Shown here: positions 1 through 39,674 of the stretch, one piece after another
Layout: every line of letters begins with the position of its first letter
Position numbering within the stretch: position 1 is the first letter of the stretch
Assembly (NCBI GenBank): GCA_964580285.1
Contig: CAZOKB010000002.1
Location: 34,770-98,769 of the forward strand
From: an uncultured Bdellovibrionales bacterium
GTDB lineage: Bacteria > Patescibacteriota > Minisyncoccia > Moranbacterales > UBA1568
Direction: 5' to 3'
Length of the DNA: 64,000 bases
The notes under the pieces: model-generated
Seen by the model: only the letters and a program-made list of their open reading frames with translations
The model's database searches: none
Told to the model about the DNA's origin: nothing
Position numbers and translations under genes: made by a program

Positions 1-173
1 ATATGGTTAAATCAAAATCAGGGCGCATCTTTGCGCTTAAGAACCATGATGAGTGTTCGGTTGATATTACAAAAATCCTGAGTGATTTGGAAGATTTAGT
101 AAAAACAAGTGTAGAGCAAGATCGGCTTCGAGAAAGAATAAAGAAGGTATTTCCTTCGTTGAAAAAATAAGCA

Positions 174-1385
174 GTGGCTATGATTTCTTTGCGATCCATT
201 GTACGAGGAAATCATTTTTGGATATCGATTCGATATGCCATTCTTTCGCTATCTGGTTTTTTGATTTCTATTGTTTTTGCTAGGTTAGGGGATAAAGAGA
301 TGTATGGATCGTACCAGTATGTATTCTCCCTAGTCTCTCTTGTTTCGGTTTTTTCTATTCCTGGAATTTCTCTTTCTGCATTACGCAGTGTGGCTTACGG
401 GAACACCGGAGCTGTTTCGCGGGCTGTTAAAACGAGTATTCTCTTTTCGTTTATTGGTTCAATAGTATTAGTACTCGTTGCTCTTTTTCAGTATTCAAAA
501 GGGATGATGGTACTAGGAACTTCTTTTCTGATCACCGCTTCTTTCTTTCCGTTTTTTTATGGCTTTACTCCCTGGTACACCTTTTATGAAGGAAGGAAAA
601 ACTTTCAACCCGTTGTTTTGCGTTCCATCTTTCTTTCCGTTGCCTGGTTAGTATTACTCCCTATATTGCTTCTTTTAAAAGCCTCTCTCCCTGTTCTTAT
701 TTTTTCTTACTTTCTTCTCTCTTCCCTTTTGCTTGCTTGCTTTTTTTTCGAGGGGAAAAGGAAGCACTCTTCTGAAGGAAGGGAGAGTCTTTCTTTGTGG
801 TATGCTTTTATTGTAACGGGTCAAAAGTTTATTTTAAACATGACAGAAAACCTCCCGGTCTTATTAATCGGGTCTTTTTTTGGGTACTCAACGGTTGCTC
901 TTTTTCAGGTTTCGTATTTTCCTTTGTCAGCATTCGCAGCTTATTTTGGGGCACTTATTGCTACCAAGTTACCTGATTTTTTTCTTGGGAACGAACAAGG
1001 GGAGCAGAAGGATCGTGCCGTGTTCTTGCAGAGCTTGTTTAGTGGAATTTGTGCGAGTTTTTTTGTCGCTTTTTTCCTCACCTTCTTTTTCCGGATTTTT
1101 TATGGAGAAGATTATTCTGATTCACTGAAAATGGCATGGCTTCTTTTGCCTATGGTGCTACTTTTCCCACTAAAGACTTATTTATTGAATTATTTTACCG
1201 CAAAAGATAGAAATTTTTCTATTATGAAAATTATTGCTTTTGCCAATATTATTTCAACCCTTTTGTTTATTGGGCTTGGGAAAGCAGGGTATTCGTATCT
1301 GTTCATTATTCCTTTGTATATGTATGTGCTAAATGGAATAACTACTTTTTCATTGGCTGTTTTTTATAGCTATAGAAAGAAGTAA
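174..1385 (+). CDS. MOP-superfamily polysaccharide/oligosaccharide flippase (Wzx-like) membrane protein
   Basis: 403 aa, ~12 predicted TM helices, hydrophobic composition typical of Wzx/MATE-like flippases; first gene of a + strand glycan operon. Confidence 0.65.
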   Translation: MAMISLRSIVRGNHFWISIRYAILSLSGFLISIVFARLGDKEMYGSYQYVFSLVSLVSVFSIPGISLSALRSVAYGNTGAVSRAVKTSILFSFIGSIVLVLVALFQYSKGMMVLGTSFLITASFFPFFYGFTPWYTFYEGRKNFQPVVLRSIFLSVAWLVLLPILLLLKASLPVLIFSYFLLSSLLLACFFFEGKRKHSSEGRESLSLWYAFIVTGQKFILNMTENLPVLLIGSFFGYSTVALFQVSYFPLSAFAAYFGALIATKLPDFFLGNEQGEQKDRAVFLQSLFSGICASFFVAFFLTFFFRIFYGEDYSDSLKMAWLLLPMVLLFPLKTYLLNYFTAKDRNFSIMKIIAFANIISTLLFIGLGKAGYSYLFIIPLYMYVLNGITTFSLAVFYSYRKK

Positions 1386-1482
1386 ATCAATTAAGTCCGA
1401 ATAGAGATAGAGAAAATTGTATCAATGAAACAAAAAGAGTATAATAAAATGGCTTATTTATAGGAAAAAAATAATTTTTTTT

Positions 1483-2421
1483 ATGGAAAATACTGTTCAA
1501 TTAGAAACTATTCCTTGTCCGTTGTGTGCTTCTACTGCTTTTGCGGTTGTATATCCTGGAAATTTTCCTAACGAGCTTTCTCAGGAGTTTTTGACGAAGG
1601 TGTATTGTTCTTCGAGTGATCAGACGATTTTTGAGCAAGTGGTTCGTTGCAATAAGTGCGAATTGGTTTATTTAAATCCAAGACTTCATTCAGATGTTAT
1701 TGTTGATTCTTACGCACAGGGAGAGGATGCAACATTTGTTGAACAGGATCTGATGCGAATCAGAACTTTTGTCGCTGCCCTTCAATGGCTGCGAAGAAAA
1801 TATCGCTTACGTTTTTCTAAAGAGACGAAAGTACTGGATATTGGATGTGCTGGCGGTGCTTTTTTGCGAGCTGCACAGAGTTTGGGTTTGTCGGCAGTTG
1901 GAGTAGAGCCGAGTAAGTGGCTTGGTGAATACGCAAGATCTAAGCATGGTCTCGAGGTGTATACTGGCACCTTATTTGATCATCCTTTTCCTGAAGCTAG
2001 CTTTGATGTAGTAACCCTCTGGGATGTGATTGAGCATGTGCCGGATCCGAGTTCTGAATTAAAAGAAGTGTATCGAATTTTGAAGCCTGAAGGATTGCTT
2101 GTAGTTAATTATCCTGATTTTGGAAGCTTAGCGTCCATGATAATGGGAAAGAAATGGCCATTTCTTTTAAGTGTGCATCTGGTGTATTACACTCGCAAGA
2201 CAATACGACGACAGCTAGCAAAGGCAGGTTTTAGAGTTTCTTGTATTCGTCTTCACTGGCAAACACTTGAGTTGCGCTATGTTTTGAAGCGAGCAGCTGC
2301 TTATTTTCCGTTTTTAAAATTTGTAGGAATTTTGGTTGAAAAACTTGGAATTGGTTCTTTTCCTTTGAAATACTGGATAGGACAAACTCAGGTGGTGGCA
2401 AAAAAGAAGTATGTCCAATAA
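1483..2421 (+). CDS. class I SAM-dependent methyltransferase with N-terminal Cys4 zinc-ribbon
   Basis: motif LDIGCAGGAF (SAM-binding motif I), acidic motif II (DVVTLWDVIEHV), N-terminal CPLC...CNKC. Confidence 0.8.
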   Translation: MENTVQLETIPCPLCASTAFAVVYPGNFPNELSQEFLTKVYCSSSDQTIFEQVVRCNKCELVYLNPRLHSDVIVDSYAQGEDATFVEQDLMRIRTFVAALQWLRRKYRLRFSKETKVLDIGCAGGAFLRAAQSLGLSAVGVEPSKWLGEYARSKHGLEVYTGTLFDHPFPEASFDVVTLWDVIEHVPDPSSELKEVYRILKPEGLLVVNYPDFGSLASMIMGKKWPFLLSVHLVYYTRKTIRRQLAKAGFRVSCIRLHWQTLELRYVLKRAAAYFPFLKFVGILVEKLGIGSFPLKYWIGQTQVVAKKKYVQ

Positions 2422-3082
2422 TCTTTCTGAAATTGAAGTAGTGATATTCGACATGGATGGGGTGTTGTTTCTCTCGAGTGATTGTCACGAACGGGCTTTT
2501 CGGGAAGTCTTACAAAAAATCGGTATTACGGATTTTGCCTATGCCTCTGTGGCGGGGATGCGGACAGAGGAAACAATAGAAAAGATTTTGATTGAAAATG
2601 GGAGATTAGTTTCCTTAGAAACCGTGCAAGAGCTTGCAAATGCAAAACGGAAACGAGCACTTGAATTTTTAGGGAAAGAAGGGGAAATCACCCCCCAAAG
2701 TAAAGAACTTATTGCATCTCTTCGAAAAAAATATCGGCTTGTCTTGGCTTCTTCGGCCTCTCCTCAGACTGTAGAGCTTTTTTTGCAAAAAAGCGGATAC
2801 TCAGACGCCTTTAAACTGTGTCTCAATGGGGCTATGGTAAAAGAAGCAAAGCCGTCTCCAGAGATTTATTTATTGGCTGCAAAAAGGCTTGATATAGAGC
2901 CAAAAGGGTGTATAGTAGTTGAAGATGCAATAAATGGCGTGGAGGCAGCTAAGAAGGCCGGAATGCTTGCTGTTGCTGTTTTAGGGACAGAGGTTCCCGA
3001 GAAACTCTTAGCTGCCGGAGCTGATTACCTTATCAAAAATCTTGCAGAAATAGAACCGATTTTGCTTACCAGGCCTATATGA
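2411..3082 (+). CDS. HAD-superfamily hydrolase, subfamily IA (beta-phosphoglucomutase-like phosphatase/mutase)
   Basis: N-terminal VIFDMDGVL (DxDG nucleophile motif), C-terminal VEDAINGVEAAKKAGM (HAD motif IV); 11-nt overlap with upstream gene. Confidence 0.8.
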   Translation: MSNNLSEIEVVIFDMDGVLFLSSDCHERAFREVLQKIGITDFAYASVAGMRTEETIEKILIENGRLVSLETVQELANAKRKRALEFLGKEGEITPQSKELIASLRKKYRLVLASSASPQTVELFLQKSGYSDAFKLCLNGAMVKEAKPSPEIYLLAAKRLDIEPKGCIVVEDAINGVEAAKKAGMLAVAVLGTEVPEKLLAAGADYLIKNLAEIEPILLTRPI

Positions 3083-3888
3083 AAATTCTAACATTTGAGG
3101 AAGTGCATCGTTCTTGTGGTGTAGGGCTAGACCCTTCGCTTTGGACGGTAGTAATTCCGGCTGCAGGGAAAGGAACTCGTCTTGGTTATTCTAAACCGAA
3201 AATTCTTTATCCTATAGCAGGAAAGACTATTCTTGATAGAATGATCGATCTTCTTTCTCCATTTTGTGCAAATTTTAAGTTTGTATTTTCTCCTCTCAAT
3301 GCTTCTTATGCTGCGCATATTGTGGAGGATCGATTAGGATCTCGTGGAAAATCCCTTGTTATAGAAAATTCTAAAGGTATGGCTGATTCTATTTATCGTG
3401 CCATTCCAGAAATCACAACCCCCTATACTCTTATTATTTGGGGTGATCAGCCGGCGATTTTACCGGAAACTATCCGTGCTCTTATGGAGATCAAGCAATC
3501 TTACGAAGAAACAACTTTGGTGCTTCCTCTGGTATCGCGGGAAAATCCATATGTTCATTATGAAAGTAATGAAGCTGGTTGTTTTATTCGTGTGCTTCAG
3601 AGGCGCGAAGGAGATATGATGCCGTCGATTGGAGAAAGTGACTGCGGAGTTTTTGCTTTTAATACAAAAGAGTTACAAGGAGTTTTCCGACAAGAAATTG
3701 AAAAAGGGATTTCGCTGAGTCAAGTTACGAAAGAGTGGAATTTTCTTCCTTTACTCCCTCAGTTTGATACTAATAGTGAAGCAGTAAAGGCATTGCGCTT
3801 GGATTCTTTGGAACAAACAATTGGTGTGAATGATGCTCAGGATGTTGCAATTCTTGAGAAATATTTTAATGAGTTATCCGTGAAATAA
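3079..3888 (+). CDS. nucleotidyltransferase (MobA-like / sugar- or phospho-compound NTP transferase fold)
   Basis: VVIPAAGKGTRLG glycine-rich NTP-binding loop typical of RmlA/LicC/IspD/CofC-like nucleotidyltransferases; ATGA overlap with HAD gene. Confidence 0.75.
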   Translation: MKILTFEEVHRSCGVGLDPSLWTVVIPAAGKGTRLGYSKPKILYPIAGKTILDRMIDLLSPFCANFKFVFSPLNASYAAHIVEDRLGSRGKSLVIENSKGMADSIYRAIPEITTPYTLIIWGDQPAILPETIRALMEIKQSYEETTLVLPLVSRENPYVHYESNEAGCFIRVLQRREGDMMPSIGESDCGVFAFNTKELQGVFRQEIEKGISLSQVTKEWNFLPLLPQFDTNSEAVKALRLDSLEQTIGVNDAQDVAILEKYFNELSVK

Positions 3889-3893
3889 AGAGT

Positions 3894-5951
3894 ATGCTAA
3901 AGGATGAGGGGGTAAAGTTGCGGGTAGTGATGTTCTCAGGAGGAAGGGGAACCGGTGTTCTGACAGAAGCGCTTTTGAAGTATCCAGATATAGAACTTAC
4001 ACTTCTGGTGAATACGTACGATGATGGTCTTTCTACGGGACTATTAAGGCGCTTTATTCCTGGTATGTTAGGTCCATCTGATGTACGAAAAAATATTTCT
4101 CGTTTTCTGAAAATTCGAAGCGATGCTGCTTCTCAGGCATTGCATTGGCTTATCGAATATCGTTTTCCAGAAGATATACAGACCGAGCGAGCATTGAATA
4201 TACTGAATGATTTTATCTCACTTGAGAACCGTAAAGTGATTACGGGCGAACTTTTATCTATGAGAGAAAAACTCTCTCTCGGGCAAGCTAAAAAAGCAAG
4301 TGAGTACTTAGCAGTTTTTCTTGCTTATTACACAGAACGCATTGCTGTTTCAGAATTCACTTTTCAAGATTGTTCTTTTGGAAATTTACTTTTTGCAGGA
4401 TGTTACTTGGTGAACGGAAATGATTTTAATAAAGCGATTAAAGATTTTTCTCAATTCGCAGAAATTGGTGATCGAGTATTAAATATCACAGATGGCGAAA
4501 ATCGAGTACTGGTTGCAATAAAAGAGAATGGACAGTATCTGCATGATGAAGCAAGTATTGTAGGTCCTCAGGATGCTTCTCGAATTCAAGAAATTTTCCT
4601 TTTACGAGATTATCTGGATAAAGCGACACATTCATTGAATGAATTTAAAATTGATAACGTCCGGTTTTTAAGGAATATTGAATCTCTTCCTCGAATTAGC
4701 CCAACAGCAGAAAAGGTGTTACAAGAGGCGGATATTATTATCTATGGCCCTGGGACACAATATTCATCGCTTCTTCCATCGTATCTAACTTCTGGTGTTG
4801 CGGAAATAATTCAAAAAAATACGCGTGCTGAAAAAATTTTTATCGCCAATATTGCACGTGATTATGATATTCTTGGCGAAGATGCAACTACTTTAGTGAA
4901 AGCCTTTTTGTTTAATATGAGCCGTAAGGTTGAAGGCATGGTGCGATGCCAAGATGTGGTGACCCGGTTCTTTTTTCAGAAACCTGAAGTAAACGAAAAC
5001 GAAGAAACCCCGTATGTTCCTTTTGACGCAAAGGCCTTTGAATATCCTCTAGAAAAAGTAGTATGGATTGATTGGGAGGGAGAGAAGGGTAAGCATTCTG
5101 GAAGCAAAACGATTTCTGAGCTCCTCTTGCTTGTTGAGGGTGCGCTGCAGAAGAAGGTTTCGCATGTTTCTCAAAAGGTTTCTATTATTGTTCCTGCGCT
5201 CAATGAGGAGCGGACAATAAAAAATACACTTCAAGATCTTGCTCGCTTTCAATTTTCTGGATTCTCTTTGGAAAAAGAAATTATTGTGATAGATGGTGGA
5301 TCAACAGATAAGACATACGAAATAGCGAGTGCAGAACCTACAGTAAGGGTATACCGGAGTAATGGAGGGAGAGGAAAAGCGCTTCGATTGGGGCTTGAAA
5401 AAGCAAAGGGGGATATTGCAGTTTTTTTTCCAGCAGATGCAGAATACCTTGTAGAAGATATCGCGCGAGTTGTTTCTCCGTTAGTGAGCCAAGAGTTCCC
5501 AGTAGTCTTCGGAAGTCGAGCTTTTCGTACTAATGATCTTAACGGAACACTGAAGCGGATTTACGGGAAGAAGGGATTTTTGTACTTTATCAGTAAATAT
5601 GGAGGAGTGCTTCTAAGCGTGCTGACATTAGTCATTTATCATCGTTTTGTTAGTGATCCATTGACGAGTCTTAAGGGCTTTAATTCACGTATTTTTCGTG
5701 ATCTTCAATTTACTCGTAGCGGTGTTGACTTTGATATGGAGCTTATCGCAAAAATCGCTCGGAAAAAATATGTTATTCTAGAAGTACCAGTGAGTTATAA
5801 GGCAAGAACTATCCAGGAAGGGAAAAAGATTACCGTACTTGATGGTTTGCGGTGTCTATGGACATTGCTACGTTTTTCTAGTTGGAAGCAAAAGAGAATA
5901 TCAGAAACCCAATATGCCAAAAGTATCAATCGTTATTCCAGCGTACAATGA
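3894..5951 (+). CDS. fusion protein: N-terminal CofD/YvcK (UPF0052) family domain + C-terminal family-2 glycosyltransferase
   Basis: N-term VVMFSGGRGTGVL...LTLLVNTYDDGLSTGLLRRF matches the GGxGT and DDGGSxGRLR signatures of the CofD/YvcK superfamily. C-term VSIIVPALNEERTI...IIVIDGGSTDKT...PADAEY is a canonical GT2 (DPM1-like). No Met/stop at the junction. Confidence 0.75.
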   Translation: MLKDEGVKLRVVMFSGGRGTGVLTEALLKYPDIELTLLVNTYDDGLSTGLLRRFIPGMLGPSDVRKNISRFLKIRSDAASQALHWLIEYRFPEDIQTERALNILNDFISLENRKVITGELLSMREKLSLGQAKKASEYLAVFLAYYTERIAVSEFTFQDCSFGNLLFAGCYLVNGNDFNKAIKDFSQFAEIGDRVLNITDGENRVLVAIKENGQYLHDEASIVGPQDASRIQEIFLLRDYLDKATHSLNEFKIDNVRFLRNIESLPRISPTAEKVLQEADIIIYGPGTQYSSLLPSYLTSGVAEIIQKNTRAEKIFIANIARDYDILGEDATTLVKAFLFNMSRKVEGMVRCQDVVTRFFFQKPEVNENEETPYVPFDAKAFEYPLEKVVWIDWEGEKGKHSGSKTISELLLLVEGALQKKVSHVSQKVSIIVPALNEERTIKNTLQDLARFQFSGFSLEKEIIVIDGGSTDKTYEIASAEPTVRVYRSNGGRGKALRLGLEKAKGDIAVFFPADAEYLVEDIARVVSPLVSQEFPVVFGSRAFRTNDLNGTLKRIYGKKGFLYFISKYGGVLLSVLTLVIYHRFVSDPLTSLKGFNSRIFRDLQFTRSGVDFDMELIAKIARKKYVILEVPVSYKARTIQEGKKITVLDGLRCLWTLLRFSSWKQKRISETQYAKSINRYSSVQ

Positions 5952-6654
5952 AGAAGCATTCATAGGAACGCTTCTCGAGACTATCTTACAGGTTGATCTC
6001 AAATCTATCGGTTTTGAAAGGGAAATTATTGTAGTGGATAATGGCTCAAAAGATAGAACTCATGAGATTGCGAGTGCCTTTCAGGAGGTACGTTGTCTTC
6101 ATCTAGACGTGAATCAAGGAAAGGGTGGAGGAGTGAAATATGGCGTAGCAAATGCAACTGGTGATTATATTTTGATCCAGGATGCTGATCTTGAATATAA
6201 CCCAAAGGATTATATCCCTCTCCTCAAGCCACTTTCGAAATCTCCTCAGTCCTTGTCGGTATACGGGAGTCGAATTCTTGGTGAGCTTCAAGAGGGAGGG
6301 GCGAGTTGGCTTCCCGGAAAACACAAAGATAAATCTCTAGCTACTTATATTGCTAATACCATTCTTTCTTTATGGGCGTTTTTATTATACGGGCGTTATA
6401 TGACAGACACGCTGACTGGGTATAAAGTCTATCCAGCAAAGCTTCTTCAAAATTTTAGTATTCAAACTTTTGGTTTTGAGACGGATCATGAATTAACCGC
6501 AAAATTACTTCGAAGTGGTGTCAAAATTATTGAAGTCCCGGTTTCGTATCAGCCCCGGACATTAGAAGAAGGAAAAAAAATACGTGCCATTGATTTTGTT
6601 ATTGCTCTTTGGACATTTTTAAAATTTCGATTTGTATTTAAGAAAAATTTTTAA
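5914..6654 (+). CDS. family-2 glycosyltransferase (polyprenyl-phosphate sugar synthase-like)
   Basis: MPKVSIVIPAYNEE...IIVVDNGSKDRT...DADLEYNP; start chosen at MPKV (38-nt overlap with upstream gene). Confidence 0.85.
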   Translation: MPKVSIVIPAYNEEAFIGTLLETILQVDLKSIGFEREIIVVDNGSKDRTHEIASAFQEVRCLHLDVNQGKGGGVKYGVANATGDYILIQDADLEYNPKDYIPLLKPLSKSPQSLSVYGSRILGELQEGGASWLPGKHKDKSLATYIANTILSLWAFLLYGRYMTDTLTGYKVYPAKLLQNFSIQTFGFETDHELTAKLLRSGVKIIEVPVSYQPRTLEEGKKIRAIDFVIALWTFLKFRFVFKKNF

Positions 6655-6661
6655 AAACGGG

Positions 6662-7066
6662 ATGATTAGATTGATTCTTGAAAAATTTCCATTAAAGCGC
6701 CTCATAAAATTCATTATCACAGGCGGCGTTGCATTGGCTATTGATATGGCTATCTATTTTATTTTGACCCGCTATGGAAATATCTATTATCTTTTTGGTC
6801 GGATAATTTCTTTAGGAATTGCAATTATTTGGAACTTCAGTATTAATCGTATCTGGACCTTTTCAGCTCTATCTGGAAAAGTGACGCAGCAAATGCCGCG
6901 TTTTCTGGTAGTTATTTTTTCAACGTCTCTTTTAAGTTTGATACTCATGCATATCGGAGTCTCTGTTTTTCACTTTAATGATCTCCTTGTATTGATTGTA
7001 GTTGCTGTTACCACAACACTGATTAATTTTTCTGCTCATTCATTTTGGAGCTATTCAAAATATTAA
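6662..7066 (+). CDS. GtrA-family small membrane protein
   Basis: IKFIITGGVALAIDMAIYFIL ... IAIIWNFSINRIWTF; typical GtrA topology and position directly after a GT2. Confidence 0.75.
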   Translation: MIRLILEKFPLKRLIKFIITGGVALAIDMAIYFILTRYGNIYYLFGRIISLGIAIIWNFSINRIWTFSALSGKVTQQMPRFLVVIFSTSLLSLILMHIGVSVFHFNDLLVLIVVAVTTTLINFSAHSFWSYSKY

Positions 7067-7067
7067 T

Positions 7068-8759
7068 ATGAATTTTCTTAAAACAAACTATTGGAAATTT
7101 CTTTTTTTAATCCCTTTTTTTATTCTTCTTGAATTTAGTGTTCACCCAATCACCTTTGGTCCTGATCGATGGATCCATGATTCACCAGTGCACCAACTTA
7201 ATGATCCGAAATATCTTTCAGAGGATTGGTATACCAAAATGGCAGTAGATAGTGGAGTGTATAGCTTTTATGCGAAGCTGATTCATGTTTCAGATTTTCT
7301 CCATATCAATGAAGAACGTTGGCGGCAAGTACTCTATCTTTCCTGCTTGGCTTTGATTTATTTTTCAATGATGCGAATGAGTCTTCTTTTTACCAAAAAT
7401 ATTCTTGTCATACCGATCGTAGTCTCTCTTCATGCATTTGTGATGACTTTCTATCCTCCTTATTGGATGTATGGAAAGTTTTTACAAGTTGATGGTGGAC
7501 TAGCTCCTCGATCTATCGGGGTGGCTTTTTCTTTTTTCTCGCTCTTTTTTCTTTTGAAGGGTGCTCGAATAATTCCTTGGGTTATTCTCGGCCTTTCAAC
7601 TCTCATTCATGTTTCTAATTCCTTCATCGTTTTTACGCTCTTTTTTTCTGCTTGGTTTGTATGTGAGCTTATACATAAGACGAATGGTAGTAAAAAGCTC
7701 TTTATTAAAGAACTTGTCCGTAAGTCCTTTGCTAACTTTGGCATATATATTATTTCAGGAGGATGGTTTGCTTTGTATATAGCGACACTTACCTCAGGGC
7801 CGGTTTCTTTCTCAGATAATAAGTTTATTTGGTCATGGATTTATTTCCGAGCGCCATACATGGCACTTACTGAGGTCCCAAGTTTTTTTTGGGTAGTTTT
7901 TTTCGCTCATATTGTCGGAATGTTTACGGGGTGGTTTCTTTTGAGAAGATTTAAGGAAATTACCAATAAATATCTCGTTGATATTTTAGGGTTTATTGGG
8001 GTGGGTGCGGCATTGTATTTATTTATATTTTACTTTTTTTCTATAGTTTTTCCGTGGCTTCCTGGATTCCAATTTTATTCTATTCGGATTATATATTTTA
8101 CTTATTTCTCAACCTATTTCATTTTGGCTCTTGTTGTTGTTATGCGATTCAGGTGGAGTATGAATCTTTTTCTTGATTTTGTTTCTAGGAAATATAGGTT
8201 TTCTTTGCATTATCTTTTTTATTGTGTCTTTATACTTTTTTCTCTTGTTGTGGCTGGTTATATCACCTTTACCTTGAGTCAGGAATTGGCCAAGAGAGGA
8301 CCAGACAACTTACGTATTTCTTTATATCGATTTCTTCATATTGAAGAAGCTTATCCAGAACAGAGTGTTGTTATGAGGTATCTTTATGATCATCCTCAGC
8401 CTTTCCTTTCTCCGGTAGCGGGGTGGTTAATGCCTGTTGGTTCGCCATATCTTCCGAGTGTTGTCACGGTAAAGTCATTTGGATTTACTCGAACTGGTCT
8501 CGAAGAATGGTTTGAACGATTAAACGATATTAGTAATGGCGATTTGGAACGGAGATATCAAGCACAAGAAAAATCCGGAAAATATAAGCCGGTTATCATT
8601 GATTGGCTAAAAGTGTATTCAAATCTTTCTGCTCGTGATGTTCTTTTTCTTTCAGAAAAATATCATTTCAATCTTTTCCTTGCATACAAAAATACACGCT
8701 ATCCATTTGAGGTTGTAGTAGAGGACGAGAATTATCGGCTTTACCGAGTTTCAGAATAA
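7068..8759 (+). CDS. large polytopic membrane protein (possible GT-C-type glycosyltransferase or polymerase), function unknown
   Basis: 563 aa, >12 hydrophobic segments, 1-nt spacing from gtrA-like gene. Confidence 0.55.
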   Translation: MNFLKTNYWKFLFLIPFFILLEFSVHPITFGPDRWIHDSPVHQLNDPKYLSEDWYTKMAVDSGVYSFYAKLIHVSDFLHINEERWRQVLYLSCLALIYFSMMRMSLLFTKNILVIPIVVSLHAFVMTFYPPYWMYGKFLQVDGGLAPRSIGVAFSFFSLFFLLKGARIIPWVILGLSTLIHVSNSFIVFTLFFSAWFVCELIHKTNGSKKLFIKELVRKSFANFGIYIISGGWFALYIATLTSGPVSFSDNKFIWSWIYFRAPYMALTEVPSFFWVVFFAHIVGMFTGWFLLRRFKEITNKYLVDILGFIGVGAALYLFIFYFFSIVFPWLPGFQFYSIRIIYFTYFSTYFILALVVVMRFRWSMNLFLDFVSRKYRFSLHYLFYCVFILFSLVVAGYITFTLSQELAKRGPDNLRISLYRFLHIEEAYPEQSVVMRYLYDHPQPFLSPVAGWLMPVGSPYLPSVVTVKSFGFTRTGLEEWFERLNDISNGDLERRYQAQEKSGKYKPVIIDWLKVYSNLSARDVLFLSEKYHFNLFLAYKNTRYPFEVVVEDENYRLYRVSE

Positions 8760-8772
8760 AAAAGAAATCCAA

Positions 8773-9981
8773 TTATCTCCTTTCTATTGCTTCTCGGAAT
8801 ACACCCTCAATTTTTTCTGAGATAAGAGCTTGATGGAATTTTTTACTATACAGATCAAGAGAGTTTTTTGAATGATCTTCTAGTAGCGTTGAATCTTTAA
8901 GGTATTTTTCTACAGAAGAAATAATAAAATTTTCAATTATTTTGAGTTTTCCTGTATTTTGTAGTGAAAAAAGTTTTGTGTAAAAATCCTTTGGATTGTA
9001 ATAGCGGCCAAACATTTGGTATGTTTCTGGATTGTAGTCTCTAAGTGGATTAGGGTATGTAAATCCATTTAATCCTTCCCGTACCATTTCTTTTGTAGCA
9101 TATTGATCTGTGATAATGAGAGGCATACCATACGAGAGAGCCTCGACTAAAACAAGACCAAAGCCTTCCCGGTACGTTGGAAGGAGAAGGATGTCATGAG
9201 TTTGATACATTTCTGCCATTTCTTTTTCATTTAATTTTGCGTCTTGCAATGTAAGGCCTGGCAAGGAACATAAATAATCAATATCCTCTTTTCGTAGCAT
9301 GTGGAGGGCGGTAATAATTGTGAGACTGACATTTTGGTGGGTTTGTCTGAGTTTTTCATAAGCATGAGCTACTTCCATTCCTCCCTTCATGTAGAATGTT
9401 CCAGGAAAAAGAAGTTTTAGGGTTCCATCAAAACATTTGGGTGTCGATGTCCCTGCTTCTTCTGATGGAATGGGATAAATAACTATACTTTTTTTCATTA
9501 GAATTTTTTGTGTTCTTTCCCCGTAGTTTACAGAAGCAAAAAAGCTTTTTTTTGAAGCTTCGCTTACAAAAATAAGCTGTTTGCAATTAGATCGAGTTGC
9601 AAAAAAACCGATAATCCATCTGGCGATTGGATTTTTGGCAATTCCAAGATCGTAATTGTAGAGAGCAAGTCCTGTCTCTATATAAGTACAATATGGTTTT
9701 TTAGTAAGGAGAAGGCAGCCGTATGTAAATAAAAGATCACCTCTCTTTTTAAAATAAGGTCGTATATTAGGAATGCCAAGTATGCGTCGGAGTCTGTTTT
9801 TCCAGTGTGTTTTAAATCGTAAAATTTCCTTTTCAAATGTTGGAAGCTTGTGGTAGCTTCCTCCAGTCATGGGTGGATTTGCAATGTTAAAGAAAGTAAA
9901 ATATTTGAGTTGTTTTCCGAAGTTTAATACAAATTTTCTTAGATAAGGCTGAAAAAGGATTACTTCGTATTTTTTATCCAT
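8773..9981 (-). CDS. GT4 (GT1-fold) glycosyltransferase
   Basis: C-terminal REGFGLVLVEALSYGMPLIITD (E-x7-E retaining GT motif). Confidence 0.8.
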   Translation of the reverse strand: MDKKYEVILFQPYLRKFVLNFGKQLKYFTFFNIANPPMTGGSYHKLPTFEKEILRFKTHWKNRLRRILGIPNIRPYFKKRGDLLFTYGCLLLTKKPYCTYIETGLALYNYDLGIAKNPIARWIIGFFATRSNCKQLIFVSEASKKSFFASVNYGERTQKILMKKSIVIYPIPSEEAGTSTPKCFDGTLKLLFPGTFYMKGGMEVAHAYEKLRQTHQNVSLTIITALHMLRKEDIDYLCSLPGLTLQDAKLNEKEMAEMYQTHDILLLPTYREGFGLVLVEALSYGMPLIITDQYATKEMVREGLNGFTYPNPLRDYNPETYQMFGRYYNPKDFYTKLFSLQNTGKLKIIENFIISSVEKYLKDSTLLEDHSKNSLDLYSKKFHQALISEKIEGVFREAIERR

Positions 9982-9991
9982 AAGAATATTG

Positions 9992-10975
9992 TTAGGTGAG
10001 GATGTTTATATACTTTTGAGTCATGCTTTTTATATTAAATCGCTCCCTGGCTTTATTATTAGTTTGTATTTTTAGTCTACTAAGTCTTCCGGGGGGTATT
10101 TCTTGTATTATTTTTGAAAATTTTTCGTAACTTTCTTTGCTAAATGGATAGGAGTTTGTGAATGGATTGTGATTTATTACGTTAACATGATAACCGTTAT
10201 GCTCGTTTTCGATAATTTCGGAAATACTACCGCGATTAAAGGCAACAACAGGGAGTCCTGCTGCCATAGCTTCAAGAACGCTATTTGGGCAGGCGGATTG
10301 ATCAGAAAAGAGGAAAACGTCGTACTGATTGAGAATAGTCAAAAGAGCTTCATTGTCCTTTTTTCCCTTAAAGTGTATATGCGATGGCAGGTTTTGAAAG
10401 AGATAGGTTAAGTTTTCGGTATATGAGCCGTAGATATCCAAAGAGAAATGATTCGGATCGAGAAGCTTAACTGATTCTATGATTGGTTCAATCTGATCTC
10501 TTCTTCGAAACTTTGCAAAGGTGAGGAGTTTAAGAGGAGAATGCGGGGTAGGATTTTCTCTAGGCTGTATCTTTTCTATATCGACTCCATTATAGATAAT
10601 AGTGATCTCTTTTGCTTTTGTTTTTCCGAGGAATTTTTCGCAGGAAGTTTTGCTGAATTCGCTTTGATAAATGACGGTATCAGCAAAAAAATTATGAATA
10701 ATCTTCATTTTGAGATTATAGAACCAATACCGTTTTCCTGTAGGTGTAGCAGGATGATAGACGCCGTCTAATCGTTGGATTATTTTTTTTCTCTTAATTT
10801 TTGCGTAGAGAGGAAAGAATAGCGAGCAGTCAGTAATGATAAAAAGTACATCAAAATTTTTTTCAAAATTGAAGATAATAACAAATCCTCGTTTGATCAG
10901 TTGTTTGGAAAACTTCCCAACGAAGGTTGAAGTGCCGCCTATATCCTTTGTCGAAAAGGGGATGAATATTTTCAT
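9992..10975 (-). CDS. GT4 glycosyltransferase
   Basis: PNSVLEAMAAGLPVVAFNRGSISEII; start set at MKIFIP giving ATGA overlap with upstream GT2 gene. Confidence 0.8.
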   Translation of the reverse strand: MKIFIPFSTKDIGGTSTFVGKFSKQLIKRGFVIIFNFEKNFDVLFIITDCSLFFPLYAKIKRKKIIQRLDGVYHPATPTGKRYWFYNLKMKIIHNFFADTVIYQSEFSKTSCEKFLGKTKAKEITIIYNGVDIEKIQPRENPTPHSPLKLLTFAKFRRRDQIEPIIESVKLLDPNHFSLDIYGSYTENLTYLFQNLPSHIHFKGKKDNEALLTILNQYDVFLFSDQSACPNSVLEAMAAGLPVVAFNRGSISEIIENEHNGYHVNVINHNPFTNSYPFSKESYEKFSKIIQEIPPGRLSRLKIQTNNKARERFNIKSMTQKYINILT

Positions 10976-11766
10976 AGAGTTGCTTTCCGTTTCAGTTTTT
11001 TTAACCATTGCGGTGCAATGGCGACTAAGATTGGTTCGGCAAGCCATTTGTATTCACAGAGAGATCTTTTGTATCGCCTGAGGTATTTGATTCGAGTTTT
11101 AACGCATTGGAGCATCTGGTCTTTCTGATTTTTTCCATCAGAAGTAAGAGTGTTTTCGATATTTCGAAAACAGAGAAATTCGGGGATATTAGCAAAAGAA
11201 GATTGTGGGAGAAGGCGAAGCCAGAGATCGTAATCTTGTCCGTAGTAGACGGTTTCGTCATATCCTTCCACCTCTTTGATTTTGTTTGTTCGGAAGACAA
11301 CGCAGCTATGGGCAAATGGATTGTGTTTGAAAATATTTCTTTTGATTTCCTCGTTTGTTTCTGGGAGAGTAATTCTTTTTAATCCTTTTGAAGAGATATT
11401 TTCGTACCAGGTTCCGACGAGATCACAATCAGGGTGGTTTTCGAGAAAGTAGATTTGTTTTTCAAGTTTTTCTGGATGCCATTTGTCATCAGCATCGATT
11501 CTGGCGGTGTATGGCTCAGTAATAAATGATAATCCTTTGTTGAGAGATCGAGTAAGGCCGATATTGGTTTCATTTGCTAAAAGAAAAAATCTCTCTTCTC
11601 CGAATCGGTTTTGCCATTTCTTAAGAGAATTCAATGTGTCATCTTTTGAACAATCGTTTATAGCAATGATTCGAAAGTCTTGAAAAGTTTGTACTGAAAG
11701 ACTTTCGAATGTTTTATCGAGAGTTTTTTCTGCGTTATAGAGCGAGATAAGTACGGCGCATTTCAT
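10972..11766 (-). CDS. family-2 glycosyltransferase
   Basis: MKCAVLISLYNAEKTL...IIAINDCSKDDT...RIDADD. Confidence 0.85.
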   Translation of the reverse strand: MKCAVLISLYNAEKTLDKTFESLSVQTFQDFRIIAINDCSKDDTLNSLKKWQNRFGEERFFLLANETNIGLTRSLNKGLSFITEPYTARIDADDKWHPEKLEKQIYFLENHPDCDLVGTWYENISSKGLKRITLPETNEEIKRNIFKHNPFAHSCVVFRTNKIKEVEGYDETVYYGQDYDLWLRLLPQSSFANIPEFLCFRNIENTLTSDGKNQKDQMLQCVKTRIKYLRRYKRSLCEYKWLAEPILVAIAPQWLKKLKRKATL

Positions 11767-12866: not shown

Positions 12867-12885
12867 AAGAAGAGATACCTTCTAG

Positions 12886-13974: not shown

Positions 13975-13995
13975 CGTTTCGGAATTATGAGTTAT

Positions 13996-14024
13996 AGAAA
14001 AAAGAGCTTTAATTTAGCTCTTTT
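13996..14024 (-). terminator. intrinsic terminator downstream of asnB-like gene
   Basis: AAAGAGCT-(7 nt loop)-AGCTCTTT hairpin followed on the minus strand by TTTTTTCT. Confidence 0.55.
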
Positions 14025-14061
14025 CCATTATATCACAGCTATTTATTTTGTGGCATGAAGT

Positions 14062-15948: not shown

Positions 15949-15952
15949 AAGA

Positions 15953-17626: not shown

Positions 17627-17634
17627 GAATTTGG

Positions 17635-22322: not shown

Positions 22323-22346
22323 TTTATTGTTTATTGTTTATTGACT

Positions 22347-28081: not shown

Positions 28082-28155
28082 AGATGTTGTACCATGATAT
28101 TAAGGCCAACAGGCGAATTTCCCGGCTGGTTTGCCCCTATAATAGCGTAAAATGT

Positions 28156-39664: not shown

Positions 39665-39674
39665 ATATTTTTTT

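What the first reader, a model, noticed from the sequence alone, without database searches (positions are those of the whole stretch)
1483..6654. CofD/YvcK-family domain fused to a GT2 glycosyltransferase, in an operon with a nucleotidyltransferase, a HAD hydrolase and a methyltransferase
Seen in sequence: ORF 3894..5951 has an N-terminal ~400 aa with the GGxGTG...DDGxSxGxLRR signatures of the UPF0052 CofD/YvcK superfamily. Its C-terminal ~260 aa is a textbook GT2 (SIIVPALNEE / DGGSTD / DAE). There is no Met or stop at the junction, so it reads as a genuine fusion. Directly upstream, with 4-11 nt overlaps, are a GxGTRL nucleotidyltransferase, a DxDG HAD hydrolase and a Zn-ribbon SAM methyltransferase; downstream follow another GT2 and a GtrA. 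Established knowledge: in F420 biosynthesis CofC, a nucleotidyltransferase, activates 2-phospho-L-lactate as a nucleoside-diphosphate derivative and CofD transfers the phospho-acid moiety to the F420 precursor Fo. YvcK relatives bind UDP-sugars. Inference: this locus may use the same activate-then-transfer logic, physically coupled to a polyprenyl-phosphate-type GT2, to decorate the glycan or lipid carrier with a small phosphorylated non-sugar group. I do not recognise this arrangement as a described system.
Basis: partly seen in the sequence, partly recalled or inferred. Interest (0 to 1): 0.7.

Follow-up and report, generated by a model that had tools for sequence, protein, structure and literature searches.

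The report
CofD-like/GT2 fusion glycan-modification cassette
The fusion is real: it is the core of a widespread, uncharacterised gene cassette that most likely builds a lipid-carried sugar donor for decorating a cell-surface polysaccharide, giving the CofD/YvcK enzyme family a probable third role.

Summary
ORF 3894-5951 is one protein with an N-terminal CofD/YvcK-superfamily domain and a C-terminal DPM-synthase-type GT2. The identical ORF occurs in three independent assemblies, more than 700 homologues share the architecture, and 288 species-level genomes encode a relative.

The conserved core is HAD - nucleotidyltransferase - CofD::GT2 - second GT2, with the methyltransferase in about half of the loci. 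Natural fusions tie the parts together: NTase::CofD::GT2, HAD::NTase, MT::HAD, HAD::NTase::CofD::GT2 and CofD::NTase.

The "activate-then-transfer" logic is supported. The "non-sugar phospho-acid" cargo is not. The nucleotidyltransferase is GlmU-type (E 4.8e-32) with no CofC match, and a sister clade carries a GalE-like epimerase.

Best model: the CofD-like domain transfers sugar-1-phosphate from the locally made NDP-sugar to a polyprenyl-phosphate-linked acceptor held by the fused GT2. The product is then flipped and transferred by the GT-C. The chemistry is inferred, not shown. I found no published description.

The parts
174..1385 (+). Wzx-type polysaccharide flippase (context gene, same strand, upstream of the cassette)
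   Evidence: PF01943 Polysacc_synt E 1.1e-9. About 9 hydrophobic segments. Orthologue upstream of the cassette in 10 close-clade loci.
1483..2421 (+). SAM-dependent methyltransferase with N-terminal Cys4 zinc ribbon (accessory tailoring enzyme of the cassette)
   Evidence: Methyltransf_23 E 3.5e-27. C12, C15, C56 and C59 are invariant in 21 orthologues (A8). Matches TcaB9, KijD1 and TylC3 NDP-sugar C-methyltransferases from the zinc ribbon through the SAM domain. Present in 45 of 83 loci and fused to the HAD in L013 and L016.
2411..3082 (+). HAD-IA hydrolase of the beta-phosphoglucomutase/CbbY group (sugar-phosphate phosphatase or mutase)
   Evidence: PF00702 E 6.2e-28. TIGR02009 130 bits (cut-off 153). 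Nearest solved structures are CbbY, TM1254 and beta-PGM. Invariant D14, D16, H26, G49, K79, S115, K147, E171 and D172 (A7). Present in 65 of 83 loci and fused to the NTase in at least 10.
3079..3888 (+). GlmU-N-terminal-type sugar-1-phosphate nucleotidyltransferase
   Evidence: NTP_transf_3 E 1e-15. Family profile A2 matches the GlmU uridyltransferase domain at E 4.8e-32 over residues 23-267. Catalytic R34, K41, D123 and N251 are kept. Present in 76 of 83 loci and fused N-terminally to the CofD::GT2 protein in at least 14.
3894..5168 (+). CofD/YvcK-superfamily domain of the fusion protein (residues 1-425, including a roughly 65-aa helical insert and a conserved C-terminal sub-domain/linker)
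   Evidence: PF01933 112.5 bits. Matches YvcK-like structures 2ppv, 2hzb and 2o2z at E about 1e-20, Foldseek TM 0.82. Invariant GG.G, YDDG.STG..R, GPSD.RK, GPGTQ.SSL.PSY and N319..D323 (A1, A4). 324 clusters at 50% identity match at E<=1e-30.
5175..5951 (+). GT2 domain of the fusion protein (residues 428-685), DPM-synthase/GtrB/ArnC type, with a hydrophobic interface helix at residues 563-581 (5580-5636)
   Evidence: PF00535 E 2.4e-21. AglJ model 94.7 bits over residues 428-662. PfDPMS 5mlz matched over profile positions 424-661, E 6.3e-18. ArnC, DPMS, GtrB and GpgS by fold. Hydrophobic helix.
5914..6654 (+). Second, stand-alone DPM-synthase-type GT2 (paralogue of the fused GT2; universal cassette member)
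   Evidence: PF00535 E 2.1e-29. Orthologue (E 1e-72 to 1e-127) directly next to the fusion in nearly all complete loci. Profile A3 matches PfDPMS at E 1.9e-22 over positions 3-220. Shares the NEE, D.GS.D, DAD.EY, GSR, D.LTG.K and E.PV.Y..R..EGKKI motifs with the fused GT2.
6662..7066 (+). GtrA-family small membrane protein (presumed flippase of the polyprenyl-phosphate-linked sugar)
   Evidence: PF04138 E 2.4e-19. Found only in the 16 close-clade loci, always after the second GT2.
7068..8759 (+). Orphan 563-aa polytopic membrane protein with GT-C glycosyltransferase fold (presumed periplasmic transferase that uses the lipid-linked donor)

Best explanation
The region encodes a mobile surface-glycan decoration cassette.

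Step 1 (inferred): the HAD enzyme supplies a sugar-1-phosphate. The GlmU-type nucleotidyltransferase converts it into an NDP-sugar. Where the zinc-ribbon methyltransferase is present it methylates this sugar, and in some taxa a B12 radical-SAM enzyme does so as well.

Step 2 (inferred from family membership): one or both DPM-synthase-type GT2 units load a sugar onto polyprenyl phosphate at the cytoplasmic face of the membrane.

Step 3 (the novel and least certain step): the CofD/YvcK-like domain performs CofD-type chemistry. An acceptor attacks the distal phosphate of the NDP-sugar and NMP leaves. This transfers sugar-1-phosphate, forming a phosphodiester, to the polyprenyl-phosphate-linked acceptor held by the GT2 domain fused to it.

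Step 4 (inferred): GtrA flips the lipid-linked product. The GT-C-fold protein (7068-8759) transfers it to the growing O-antigen or capsule-like polymer made by the surrounding Wzx/Wzy locus.

Shown here: domain identities, the fusion, conservation of the cassette, the Rosetta fusions, the polysaccharide-locus context and the GT-C fold. Not shown: any substrate or product.
For: - The fusion is real and conserved.
- The core HAD-NTase-CofD::GT2-GT2 is kept across Bdellovibrionota, Acidobacteriota, Magnetococcales, Myxococcota, Elusimicrobiota, Margulisbacteria, CPR and others.
- Fusions link every soluble part: NTase::CofD::GT2, HAD::NTase and MT::HAD; HAD::NTase::CofD::GT2 in P0153; CofD::NTase in P0213. 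The tightest pairing is NTase with CofD, as with CofC/CofD.
- The CofD-like domain keeps the DDG aspartates that a triple mutant (D40A/D41A/N198A) in L. monocytogenes GlmR (PMC10128056) ties to activity, and the N218 equivalent of the YvcK UDP-sugar site (PMC5482804). About 60 residues are invariant even against a sister clade at 28-32% identity.
- The NTase is a GlmU-type sugar-1-phosphate enzyme. The MT resembles NDP-sugar methyltransferases. The sister clade adds a GalE-like SDR.
- Both GT2s match DPMS, GtrB, ArnC and AglJ, and the fused one has an interface helix.
- In the sister clade the fused GT2-like domain has lost its donor-binding motifs (NEE, DGGSTD) but keeps the C-terminal-half motifs (GSR, SDPLTGFR, E.PV.Y), which I take to be the acceptor side. 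It looks like an acceptor-holding scaffold for the CofD domain.
- Context is glycan synthesis in distant taxa too: Wzx, Wzy, GT4s and sugar dehydratases.
- Adjacent polytopic proteins are GT-C: YfhO, PMT_2 and the window's own 563-aa protein. GtrA is present in the window's clade.
Against: - No biochemical data exist for any member.
- The domain is closer to YvcK/GlmR, known as a UDP-sugar binder/regulator and a reported uridyltransferase, than to catalytic CofD. True CofD models and structures were not matched.
- GtrA and an identifiable GT-C partner are not universal. The sister clade shows no GT-C enrichment.
- The GT2 fold also resembles soluble glucosyl-3-phosphoglycerate synthases.
- The role of the HAD (phosphatase or mutase) is unresolved.
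- Two fully intact GT2s are more than the simple model needs.
Confidence: 0.42

Rival explanations
1. The CofD-like domain is not a phosphotransferase. It is a YvcK/GlmR-like NDP-sugar handling module: an accessory nucleotidyltransferase, or a binding/channelling or regulatory domain. It feeds the NDP-sugar to the fused GT2. The cassette then simply makes one or two polyprenyl-phosphate sugars for GT-C transfer.
For: The nearest relatives by sequence and fold are YvcK-type proteins. YvcK binds UDP-sugars (PMC5482804) and GlmR is reported to make UDP-GlcNAc (PMC10128056). Two intact DPMS-type GT2s and often two GT-C proteins per locus fit two plain lipid-linked sugars.
Against: A dedicated GlmU-type NTase is already present and is the domain most often fused to the CofD-like domain, so a second NTase is redundant. 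In the sister clade the fused GT2 has lost its donor-binding motifs while the CofD domain stays strictly conserved. That is hard to reconcile with a role of feeding donor to that GT2. Regulatory domains are unusual in O-antigen-type cassettes (own knowledge).
Confidence: 0.22
2. The CofD-like domain is a new kind of phosphoglycosyl transferase. It uses the polyprenyl phosphate bound by the GT2-like domain as the acceptor (Und-P + NDP-sugar -> Und-PP-sugar + NMP). This starts a repeat unit that the GT2 units extend.
For: The leaving-group chemistry is the same as in CofD. The fused DPMS-like domain is built to bind a polyprenyl phosphate head group. The degenerate GT2 scaffold in the sister clade fits a pure acceptor-binding role. 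No canonical initiating transferase was seen in window 1-44 kb, on the public contig upstream of it, or among the most frequent neighbour families.
Against: GtrA, YfhO and PMT_2-type partners normally use monophosphate-linked donors (own knowledge). L045 has a WecA/MraY-type gene right next to the cassette. Initiating transferases are often encoded elsewhere, so their absence is weak evidence. The HAD has no role in this scheme.
Confidence: 0.15
3. One reading: the NTase activates a small non-sugar phospho-acid (2-phospholactate, phosphoglycerate or PEP type), and the CofD-like domain puts it on the glycan or lipid carrier.
For: NTase-CofD coupling mirrors CofC-CofD. The GT2 fold also resembles enzymes that act on 3-phosphoglycerate. 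The HAD gives weak, below-cut-off hits to phosphoglycolate phosphatase models. An AsnB-type amidotransferase is present in the window's locus.
Against: The NTase matches the entire GlmU uridyltransferase domain, including the sugar-binding lobe, at E 4.8e-32 and gives no CofC match. The MT is related to NDP-sugar methyltransferases. The sister clade has a GalE-like epimerase. No kinase that could make a phospho-acid is part of the conserved core.
Confidence: 0.08
4. The cassette makes a soluble small molecule, such as a glycoside-type compatible solute or a cofactor-like compound, by the usual 'glycosylate a phosphorylated acceptor, then dephosphorylate with a HAD' route. It does not make a lipid-linked glycan donor.
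For: Fold similarity to GpgS and MpgS. A HAD phosphatase and an NTase are present. All core proteins lack true transmembrane helices. The sister clade is not next to GT-C genes.
Against: The cassette is embedded in Wzx/Wzy/GT4 loci in unrelated phyla. The sequence match to DPMS runs through the lipid-facing C-terminal half and includes a hydrophobic interface helix. GtrA and a GT-C lie in the same operon in the window.
Confidence: 0.08
5. The fusion is an assembly or sequencing artefact that joins two separate genes.
For: None found.
Against: The identical ORF appears in three independent assemblies. Hundreds of homologues have the same architecture and a conserved linker.
Confidence: 0.01

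Closest known systems
CofC/CofD (FbiD/FbiA) step of coenzyme F420 biosynthesis
   Same: A nucleotidyltransferase is paired with, and here even fused to, a PF01933-superfamily protein. The proposed chemistry is the same: an NDP-activated group is transferred with its phosphate to an acceptor, and NMP is released.
   Different: The NTase is GlmU-type, not CofC. The domain matches no CofD equivalog model or solved CofD structure. No Fo or F420 genes lie nearby. The partners are GT2s, GtrA and a GT-C inside a polysaccharide locus. The cargo is probably a sugar.
YvcK/GlmR (CuvA) UDP-sugar-binding proteins of Firmicutes and Actinobacteria
   Same: These are the closest relatives by sequence and fold. 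The DDG aspartates and the N218 equivalent are conserved. A nucleotide-sugar ligand is likely.
   Different: The score is below the subfamily cut-off (92.9 against 196 bits). The domain has a roughly 65-aa helical insert and a different C-terminal sub-domain. It is fused to a GT2. There is no yvcJ-glmR-whiA context. The host lineages are mostly diderm bacteria and CPR.
Three-component periplasmic glycosylation systems (GtrA/GtrB/Gtr-type; ArnC/ArnEF/ArnT; CsbB/GtcA/YfhO; PpgS/Rv3632)
   Same: A cytoplasmic DPMS-type GT2, a GtrA-family protein and a GT-C transferase lie in one operon. YfhO or PMT_2 partners occur in distant loci. As in the Arn pathway, the lipid-linked sugar may be modified before it is flipped.
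   Different: Extra conserved parts are present: a dedicated NTase, a HAD, a CofD-like domain, a second GT2 and methyltransferases. The GT2s lack the C-terminal transmembrane helices of GtrB and ArnC. The GT-C belongs to an orphan family with no Pfam model.
Archaeal Agl pathway (AglJ and later GT2s building a dolichyl-phosphate-linked, methylated glycan)
   Same: The best curated-model hit of both GT2s is AglJ. Several GT2s plus a SAM methyltransferase could act on one monophosphate-linked carrier.
   Different: Scores are far below the equivalog cut-off (about 94 against 325 bits). The hosts are bacterial. There is no AglB/STT3 orthologue, only fold similarity of the GT-C. The Agl pathway has no CofD-like component.
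Known NDP-X phospho-group transferases of glycans (LicC/LicD phosphocholine, TarI/TarL ribitol phosphate, Stealth hexose-1-phosphate transferases, WecA/PglC-type phosphoglycosyl transferases)
   Same: The logic is the same: activate with an NTase, then transfer X-phosphate to a glycan or lipid acceptor with release of NMP.
   Different: The transferase fold is unrelated. None of these families is PF01933, and none was found in the conserved core.

Membership tests
CofD/YvcK superfamily (Pfam PF01933) | Significant match to the family model above the gathering score | tested here: met
   112.5 bits against a cut-off of 30, E 2.9e-32, residues 11-345. Fold TM 0.82 to 2o2z and 2hzb.
True CofD / FbiA (LPPG:Fo 2-phospho-L-lactate transferase of F420 synthesis) | Match to the CofD equivalog model or to solved CofD | tested here: not met
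   No CofD equivalog among the 20 NCBIfam hits at E<=0.01. The only CofD-superfamily PDB sequence matches are YvcK-like UPF0052 structures.
True CofD / FbiA (LPPG:Fo 2-phospho-L-lactate transferase of F420 synthesis) | Company of CofC and other F420 genes | tested here: not met
   The NTase has no CofC match. No F420 genes were seen among the neighbours.
YvcK/GlmR subfamily (TIGR01826) | Score above the subfamily cut-off | tested here: not met
   92.9 bits against a cut-off of 196.
YvcK/GlmR subfamily (TIGR01826) | YvcK-type C-terminal UDP-sugar residues (Y265, R301) | tested here: inconclusive
   The sequence alignment to YvcK stops at residue 322, before the Y265/R301 region.
YvcK/GlmR subfamily (TIGR01826) | yvcJ-glmR-whiA operon context | tested here: not met
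   The operon context is different.
GT2 glycosyltransferases (PF00535) | Family model match with the D.GS.D and DxD-type motifs intact | tested here: met
   Fused domain E 2.4e-21; stand-alone GT2 E 2.1e-29. Invariant D467, D472, D515 and E517 in the fused domain, and D47, D90 and D92 in the stand-alone one.
Polyprenyl-phosphate glycosyltransferases (DPM1/DPMS, GtrB, ArnC, AglJ type) | Similarity through the whole catalytic domain, including the acceptor-side C-terminal half | tested here: met
   PfDPMS 5mlz is aligned over profile positions 424-661 and over 3-220 of the second GT2. ArnC, DPMS and GtrB by fold. But GpgS and MpgS score similarly by fold.
Polyprenyl-phosphate glycosyltransferases (DPM1/DPMS, GtrB, ArnC, AglJ type) | Membrane-interface helix | tested here: met
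   Hydrophobic helix at residues 563-581 of the fusion protein.
Polyprenyl-phosphate glycosyltransferases (DPM1/DPMS, GtrB, ArnC, AglJ type) | C-terminal transmembrane helices, as in GtrB, ArnC and PfDPMS | tested here: not met
   No transmembrane segment after the catalytic domain in either GT2. This resembles TM-less DPM1/Ppm1-type enzymes (own knowledge).
Polyprenyl-phosphate glycosyltransferases (DPM1/DPMS, GtrB, ArnC, AglJ type) | Transfer of a sugar to polyprenyl phosphate | not testable with these tools
   Needs an enzyme assay.
GtrA family (PF04138) | Family model match; small protein with four hydrophobic segments | tested here: met
   E 2.4e-19. Four hydrophobic segments.
GT-C fold glycosyltransferases | GT-C transmembrane core fold | tested here: met
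GT-C fold glycosyltransferases | Conserved acidic residues in the first extracytoplasmic loop | tested here: met
   Invariant D33 and D38 in the loop after TM1. That this loop is extracytoplasmic is inferred.
GlmU (bifunctional UDP-GlcNAc pyrophosphorylase/acetyltransferase) | Equivalog score | tested here: not met
   72.8 bits against a cut-off of 366.85.
GlmU (bifunctional UDP-GlcNAc pyrophosphorylase/acetyltransferase) | C-terminal left-handed beta-helix acetyltransferase domain | tested here: not met
   The protein is 269 aa and has only the NTase domain.
GlmU (bifunctional UDP-GlcNAc pyrophosphorylase/acetyltransferase) | GlcNAc-contact residues | tested here: not met
   Read from the alignment, with E. 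coli GlmU numbering from my own knowledge: T82 is replaced by M101 and N169 by D188, while the catalytic residues are kept.
CofC / FbiD (phospho-acid guanylyltransferase) | Match to the CofC family | tested here: not met
   Only NTP_transf_3 and IspD in Pfam. No CofC entry is among the 60 PDB matches listed, of 89 found.
Beta-phosphoglucomutase (TIGR01990) | Equivalog score | tested here: not met
   112.6 bits against a cut-off of 189.4. HAD-IA membership itself is met (TIGR01509, 58 bits against 29.4).
Beta-phosphoglucomutase (TIGR01990) | Distal-phosphate site (R49, K117, N118) | tested here: not met
   Equivalents of H20, K76 and the core residues are kept, but R49, K117 and N118 are not. 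Residue roles are from my own knowledge of L. lactis beta-PGM.
TcaB9/TylC3-type NDP-sugar C-methyltransferases | Zinc ribbon and SAM domain | tested here: met
   Both are present and align: residues 12-285 to KijD1, and 11-256 to TylC3.
TcaB9/TylC3-type NDP-sugar C-methyltransferases | C-terminal sugar-nucleotide-binding domain | tested here: not met
   The protein is about 100 aa shorter than TcaB9/KijD1 and the alignments end at about residue 285, so the C-terminal part (their NDP-sugar-binding domain, own knowledge) is absent. Generic methyltransferases score as well or better.

The most novel reading that the evidence does not exclude
The CofD/YvcK-like domain is the founding member of a third, previously unrecognised class of sugar-phosphate transferases. 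It would be a peripheral-membrane enzyme that uses a borrowed DPM-synthase-like domain to hold a polyprenyl-phosphate-linked acceptor. It would transfer sugar-1-phosphate from an NDP-sugar made on the spot. The product would be either a phosphodiester-bridged lipid-linked donor or a polyprenyl-diphosphate sugar. This would give the CofD/YvcK superfamily a general catalytic meaning, namely NDP-X to X-phosphate transfer, beyond F420.
Probability: 0.4. Interest if true: 0.85.

Novelty: new variant of a known kind. Interest (0 to 1): 0.68.

Why it matters
The CofD/YvcK superfamily has one firmly established enzymatic role (F420 synthesis) and one debated role (GlmR/YvcK in UDP-GlcNAc homeostasis). 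This family is large: 324 clusters at 50% identity match at E<=1e-30, and relatives occur in at least 288 species genomes across many phyla, including CPR and predatory bacteria. Natural fusions wire it to a sugar nucleotidyltransferase, a HAD enzyme and polyprenyl-phosphate-type glycosyltransferases inside surface-polysaccharide loci.

If the proposed chemistry is right, several things follow:
- It defines a new enzyme class for installing phosphodiester-linked residues, or for starting glycans, on lipid carriers.
- It predicts unusual methylated and phosphorylated surface sugars in poorly studied lineages.
- It offers a tractable catalytic model that could clarify what YvcK/GlmR proteins do.
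- It adds an orphan GT-C family (the 563-aa protein).

The fusions make the hypothesis directly testable with one or two recombinant proteins.

Tried and rejected
- Frameshift or artefact: rejected.
- F420-type pathway: rejected. There is no CofD equivalog, no CofC and no F420 genes.
- Ordinary GlmU, RmlA or IspD identity for the NTase: rejected as membership. Scores are far below the cut-offs.
- Literature: seven full-text searches (CofD + glycosyltransferase [+ fusion]; YvcK/CofD/UDP; CofD-like; 2-phospho-L-lactate transferase + polysaccharide; gluconeogenesis factor + glycosyltransferase + gene cluster; UPF0052). They gave no description of the fusion or cassette. The only related remark is a CofD-family pseudogene plus an NDP-nucleotidyltransferase beside the glucofuranan synthase of M. 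fermentans PG18 (PMC11658790). A S. meliloti hit concerns genuine F420 genes.
- Promoter and terminator scan of 1-9200: counts no higher than in shuffled sequence, so uninformative.
- Rfam and tRNA scans of the window: nothing found.
- tblastn against PLSDB plasmids: no fused homologue, only separate CofD-like or GT2 genes. The Acaryochloris context was uninformative.
- Cluster look-up of the window's proteins: only generic names returned.
- Single-linkage clustering of neighbours: chained through the fusion proteins and picked up conserved antisense ORFs, so it was of limited use.
- Deciding between phosphatase and mutase for the HAD, and between O-, N- or C-methylation for the MT, from conserved residues: inconclusive.
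- The B12 radical-SAM partner: it scores best on P-methyltransferase models, but far below the cut-offs and barely above BchE and HpnJ. It is not taken as evidence for phosphonate chemistry.
- Inter-domain geometry of the fusion model: could not be examined, because coordinates are not returned.

Full report
**What is in the sequence.** Window 174-8759 carries eight same-strand, tightly packed genes:
- a Wzx-type flippase (174-1385)
- a zinc-ribbon SAM methyltransferase (1483-2421)
- a HAD-IA hydrolase (2411-3082)
- a nucleotidyltransferase (3079-3888)
- the 685-aa fusion protein (3894-5951)
- a second GT2 (5914-6654)
- GtrA (6662-7066)
- a 563-aa polytopic membrane protein (7068-8759)

Pfam places residues 11-345 of the fusion in PF01933 (CofD; 112.5 bits, E 2.9e-32) and residues 430-584 in PF00535 (GT2; E 2.4e-21). 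The first 18 kb of the window has 34-41% G+C against 44-51% for the rest. Up to about 37 kb the window is a large glycan-synthesis region: GT4s, GT2s, another methyltransferase, AsnB, Ugd, two more PMT-type GT-C proteins, a second flippase and a Wzy_C protein.

**The fusion is genuine.**
- The identical 685-aa protein is encoded on three independently assembled public contigs with the same neighbours.
- A word-indexed search found 738 homologues. The best 120 all carry both domains, and many are about 950 aa with the nucleotidyltransferase fused in front.
- An alignment of 19 members at 45-72% identity shows both domains and the linker conserved, with about 150 invariant columns.
- A scan of one genome per species found relatives in 288 genomes. 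These include Bdellovibrionota, Acidobacteriota (Bryobacterales), Magnetococcales, Oligoflexia, Myxococcota, Elusimicrobiota, Margulisbacteria, Dependentiae and CPR. Cultured carriers include Bacteriovorax sp. BSW11_IV, Fluviispira multicolorata and a plasmid of Bryobacterales F-183.
- An exhaustive HMMER search with the CofD part alone found 324 clusters at 50% identity with E<=1e-30.

**The cassette.** I examined 83 loci, three of which are copies of the window's own locus.
- The nucleotidyltransferase is present in 76, the HAD in 65 and the methyltransferase in 45. An orthologue of the second GT2 lies next to the fusion in nearly every locus long enough to show it.
- GtrA and the 563-aa protein occur only in the 16 loci of the window's own clade.
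- Natural fusions join the parts: NTase::CofD::GT2 in at least 14 loci, HAD::NTase in at least 10, and MT::HAD in two. P0153 is a four-domain HAD::NTase::CofD::GT2 protein of 1148 aa. P0213 has the reverse order, CofD::NTase.
- Thirteen distant loci add a B12-binding radical-SAM enzyme next to the methyltransferase.

**Context in distant taxa.** The cassette also lies in polysaccharide loci in distant taxa, with Wzx, Wzy/O-antigen-ligase-type proteins, GT4s, a DegT aminotransferase and GDP-mannose dehydratase. It is often flanked by one or two large polytopic proteins. Those that match Pfam are YfhO or PMT_2, which are GT-C glycosyltransferases.

**The parts, one by one.**

*CofD-like domain.*
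- It is nearest to YvcK-type UPF0052 structures (2ppv, 2hzb, 2o2z; profile E about 1e-20; Foldseek TM 0.82). It is not near a true CofD.
- It scores below the YvcK subfamily cut-off (92.9 against 196 bits) and matches no CofD equivalog.
- Relative to YvcK it has a roughly 65-residue helical insert and a different, family-specific C-terminal sub-domain.
- It keeps the DDG aspartates that were mutated, together with N198, to inactivate L. monocytogenes GlmR (PMC10128056). It also keeps the equivalent of YvcK N218 from the UDP-sugar site (PMC5482804).

*Fused GT2 and free GT2.*
- They are paralogues (E about 1e-39). They share the motifs NEE, D.GS.D, DxD-EY, GSR, D.LTG.K and E.PV.Y..R..EGKK.
- Both match P. 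furiosus DPM synthase across the catalytic domain, and GtrB, ArnC and AglJ less completely.
- By fold the fused domain is nearest ArnC, DPMS, GtrB and the phosphoglycerate glycosyltransferases GpgS and MpgS.
- The fused domain has a hydrophobic helix (residues 563-581) where DPMS-type enzymes have interface helices. Neither GT2 has true transmembrane helices.

*Nucleotidyltransferase.* The family profile matches the whole GlmU uridyltransferase domain at E 4.8e-32, against about 1e-8 for RmlA and 1e-9 for IspD. No CofC entry is among the 60 matches listed. The catalytic residues are kept, but two sugar-contact positions differ.

*HAD.* It belongs to the beta-phosphoglucomutase/CbbY group. It keeps the core and the H20/K76 equivalents, but not the distal-phosphate site of beta-PGM. 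A phosphatase role is therefore somewhat more likely than a mutase role. This is inference.

*Methyltransferase.* It has an invariant Cys4 zinc ribbon. It aligns with the NDP-sugar C-methyltransferases TcaB9, KijD1 and TylC3 from the ribbon through the SAM domain. It lacks the C-terminal part (about 100 aa shorter; in those enzymes this is the NDP-sugar-binding domain, own knowledge), and generic methyltransferases score as well.

**A sister clade.** About 650-aa proteins at 28-32% identity keep the CofD-like domain almost residue for residue. Their C-terminal GT2-like domain has lost the donor-side motifs (NEE, DGGSTD, EGKK). It retains GDG, GSR, SDPLTGFR and E.PV.Y. In 80 metagenome loci these proteins sit in their own conserved module: GT2 - CofD::GT2' - [HAD] - NTase. 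In 56 of 79 of those loci a GalE-like SDR follows directly.

Two things follow.
- The product of the nucleotidyltransferase is a sugar nucleotide.
- The GT2-like domain attached to the CofD-like domain can do its job without binding a donor. This fits a role of presenting a lipid-phosphate-linked acceptor to the CofD-like active site.

**Most likely mechanism.**
- The HAD and the NTase make a dedicated NDP-sugar, with the methyltransferases tailoring it where present.
- The DPMS-type GT2s charge polyprenyl phosphate with sugar.
- The CofD-like domain carries out CofD-type transfer of sugar-1-phosphate from the NDP-sugar, releasing NMP, onto the lipid-linked acceptor held by the fused GT2.
- In the window's clade, GtrA flips the product, and the GT-C protein transfers it to the polymer made by the surrounding Wzx/Wzy locus.

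I put the general reading, a surface-glycan decoration cassette working through lipid-linked intermediates, at about 0.75. I put the specific CofD-type phosphodiester step at about 0.4.

**Rivals.**
- A YvcK/GlmR-like NDP-sugar handling or accessory nucleotidyltransferase role (0.22).
- A new phosphoglycosyl transferase that makes polyprenyl-diphosphate sugar (0.15).
- A soluble small-molecule product (0.08).

**Comparison with what is known.** The cassette combines two known logics. One is the CofC/CofD "activate, then transfer with the phosphate" step of F420 synthesis. The other is the GtrB/GtrA/GT-C (or ArnC/ArnT, CsbB/GtcA/YfhO) route of periplasmic glycosylation.
- It is a member of the PF01933 superfamily, but of neither the CofD nor the YvcK subfamily.
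- Its GT2s are DPMS-like but lack transmembrane helices.
- Its GT-C belongs to an orphan family.

Seven full-text searches found no description of the fusion or the cassette. The closest remark is an unexplained CofD-family pseudogene plus nucleotidyltransferase next to a GT2 synthase on a Clostridia-derived island in Mycoplasma fermentans (PMC11658790).

**Verdict.** This is a new variant of known kinds, with a substantial chance (about 0.4) that the CofD-like domain defines a new class of sugar-phosphate transferase.

Noticed in passing
window 1-18000 against 18000-64000: The first 18 kb, holding the cassette and the adjacent glycosyltransferase genes, has 34-41% G+C. The rest of the window has 44-51%. 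This suggests the glycan locus was acquired horizontally.
   Followed up: partly
window 25805-28081 (-), 28084-29976 (+), 30025-31557 (+): Two further PMT/PMT_2-type GT-C proteins (758 and 630 aa) lie back to back, followed by a 510-aa ORF with no Pfam hit. The genome invests heavily in glycosylation that depends on polyprenyl-phosphate sugars.
   Followed up: partly
window 32533-34005 (-), 35669-37054 (+), 24852-25790 (+), 22320-23654 (+): A second Wzx/MurJ-like flippase, a Wzy_C (O-antigen ligase/polymerase) protein, an LPG_synthase_TM protein directly after a GT4, and a UDP-glucose/GDP-mannose dehydrogenase.
   Followed up: no
window 15953-17701 (-) and 42147-44063 (-): ORFs of 582 aa (next to the AsnB-type amidotransferase at 14062-15978) and 638 aa with no Pfam match.
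   Followed up: no
window 38162-39754 (-): An RtcB RNA ligase gene (PF01139, E 1.1e-70) lies between glycan genes.
   Followed up: no
loci L085-L164 (metagenome contigs): A sister clade of the fusion has a degenerate GT2-like C-terminal domain and its own conserved module: GT2 - CofD::GT2' - [HAD] - NTase. A GalE-like SDR follows directly in 56 of 79 loci. EamA-family transporters are frequent among its neighbours (9 of 142 sampled ORFs) and no GT-C family is among the 25 most frequent neighbour families.
   Followed up: partly
L043:6120-7637, L045:6735-8216, L026:5906-7540, L052:14199-15698 and nine other loci: A B12-binding radical-SAM enzyme of about 500 aa sits next to the methyltransferase in 13 distant loci. 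Its best curated-model hits are P-methyltransferase families (Sden_1168 at 150-178 bits, PhpK at 93-96 bits). These are far below the cut-offs and only a little better than BchE and HpnJ.
   Followed up: partly
proteins P0153 and P0213: P0153 (1148 aa) is a four-domain HAD::NTase::CofD::GT2 fusion. P0213 (624 aa) has the CofD-like domain first and the nucleotidyltransferase at the C-terminus. Stand-alone CofD-like proteins of 380-430 aa from this clade also exist.
   Followed up: partly
L001:2391-3917 (-), L001:3964-6277 (+) (public contig upstream of the window's start): Just upstream of the window, the same contig carries another PMT-family GT-C protein (506 aa), an SDR epimerase, and a PglF/CapD-type 4,6-dehydratase. 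All three are conserved in the close clade. The clade therefore has two GT-C proteins flanking the two DPMS-type GT2s.
   Followed up: partly
L020:4052-8480, L023:4117-8465, L018:5929-8289: Bryobacterales loci carry one or two tandem membrane proteins of about 780 aa upstream of the cassette. L018, the one scanned, matches YfhO, and the L020 and L023 proteins cluster with it. Their place corresponds to that of the window's orphan GT-C.
   Followed up: partly
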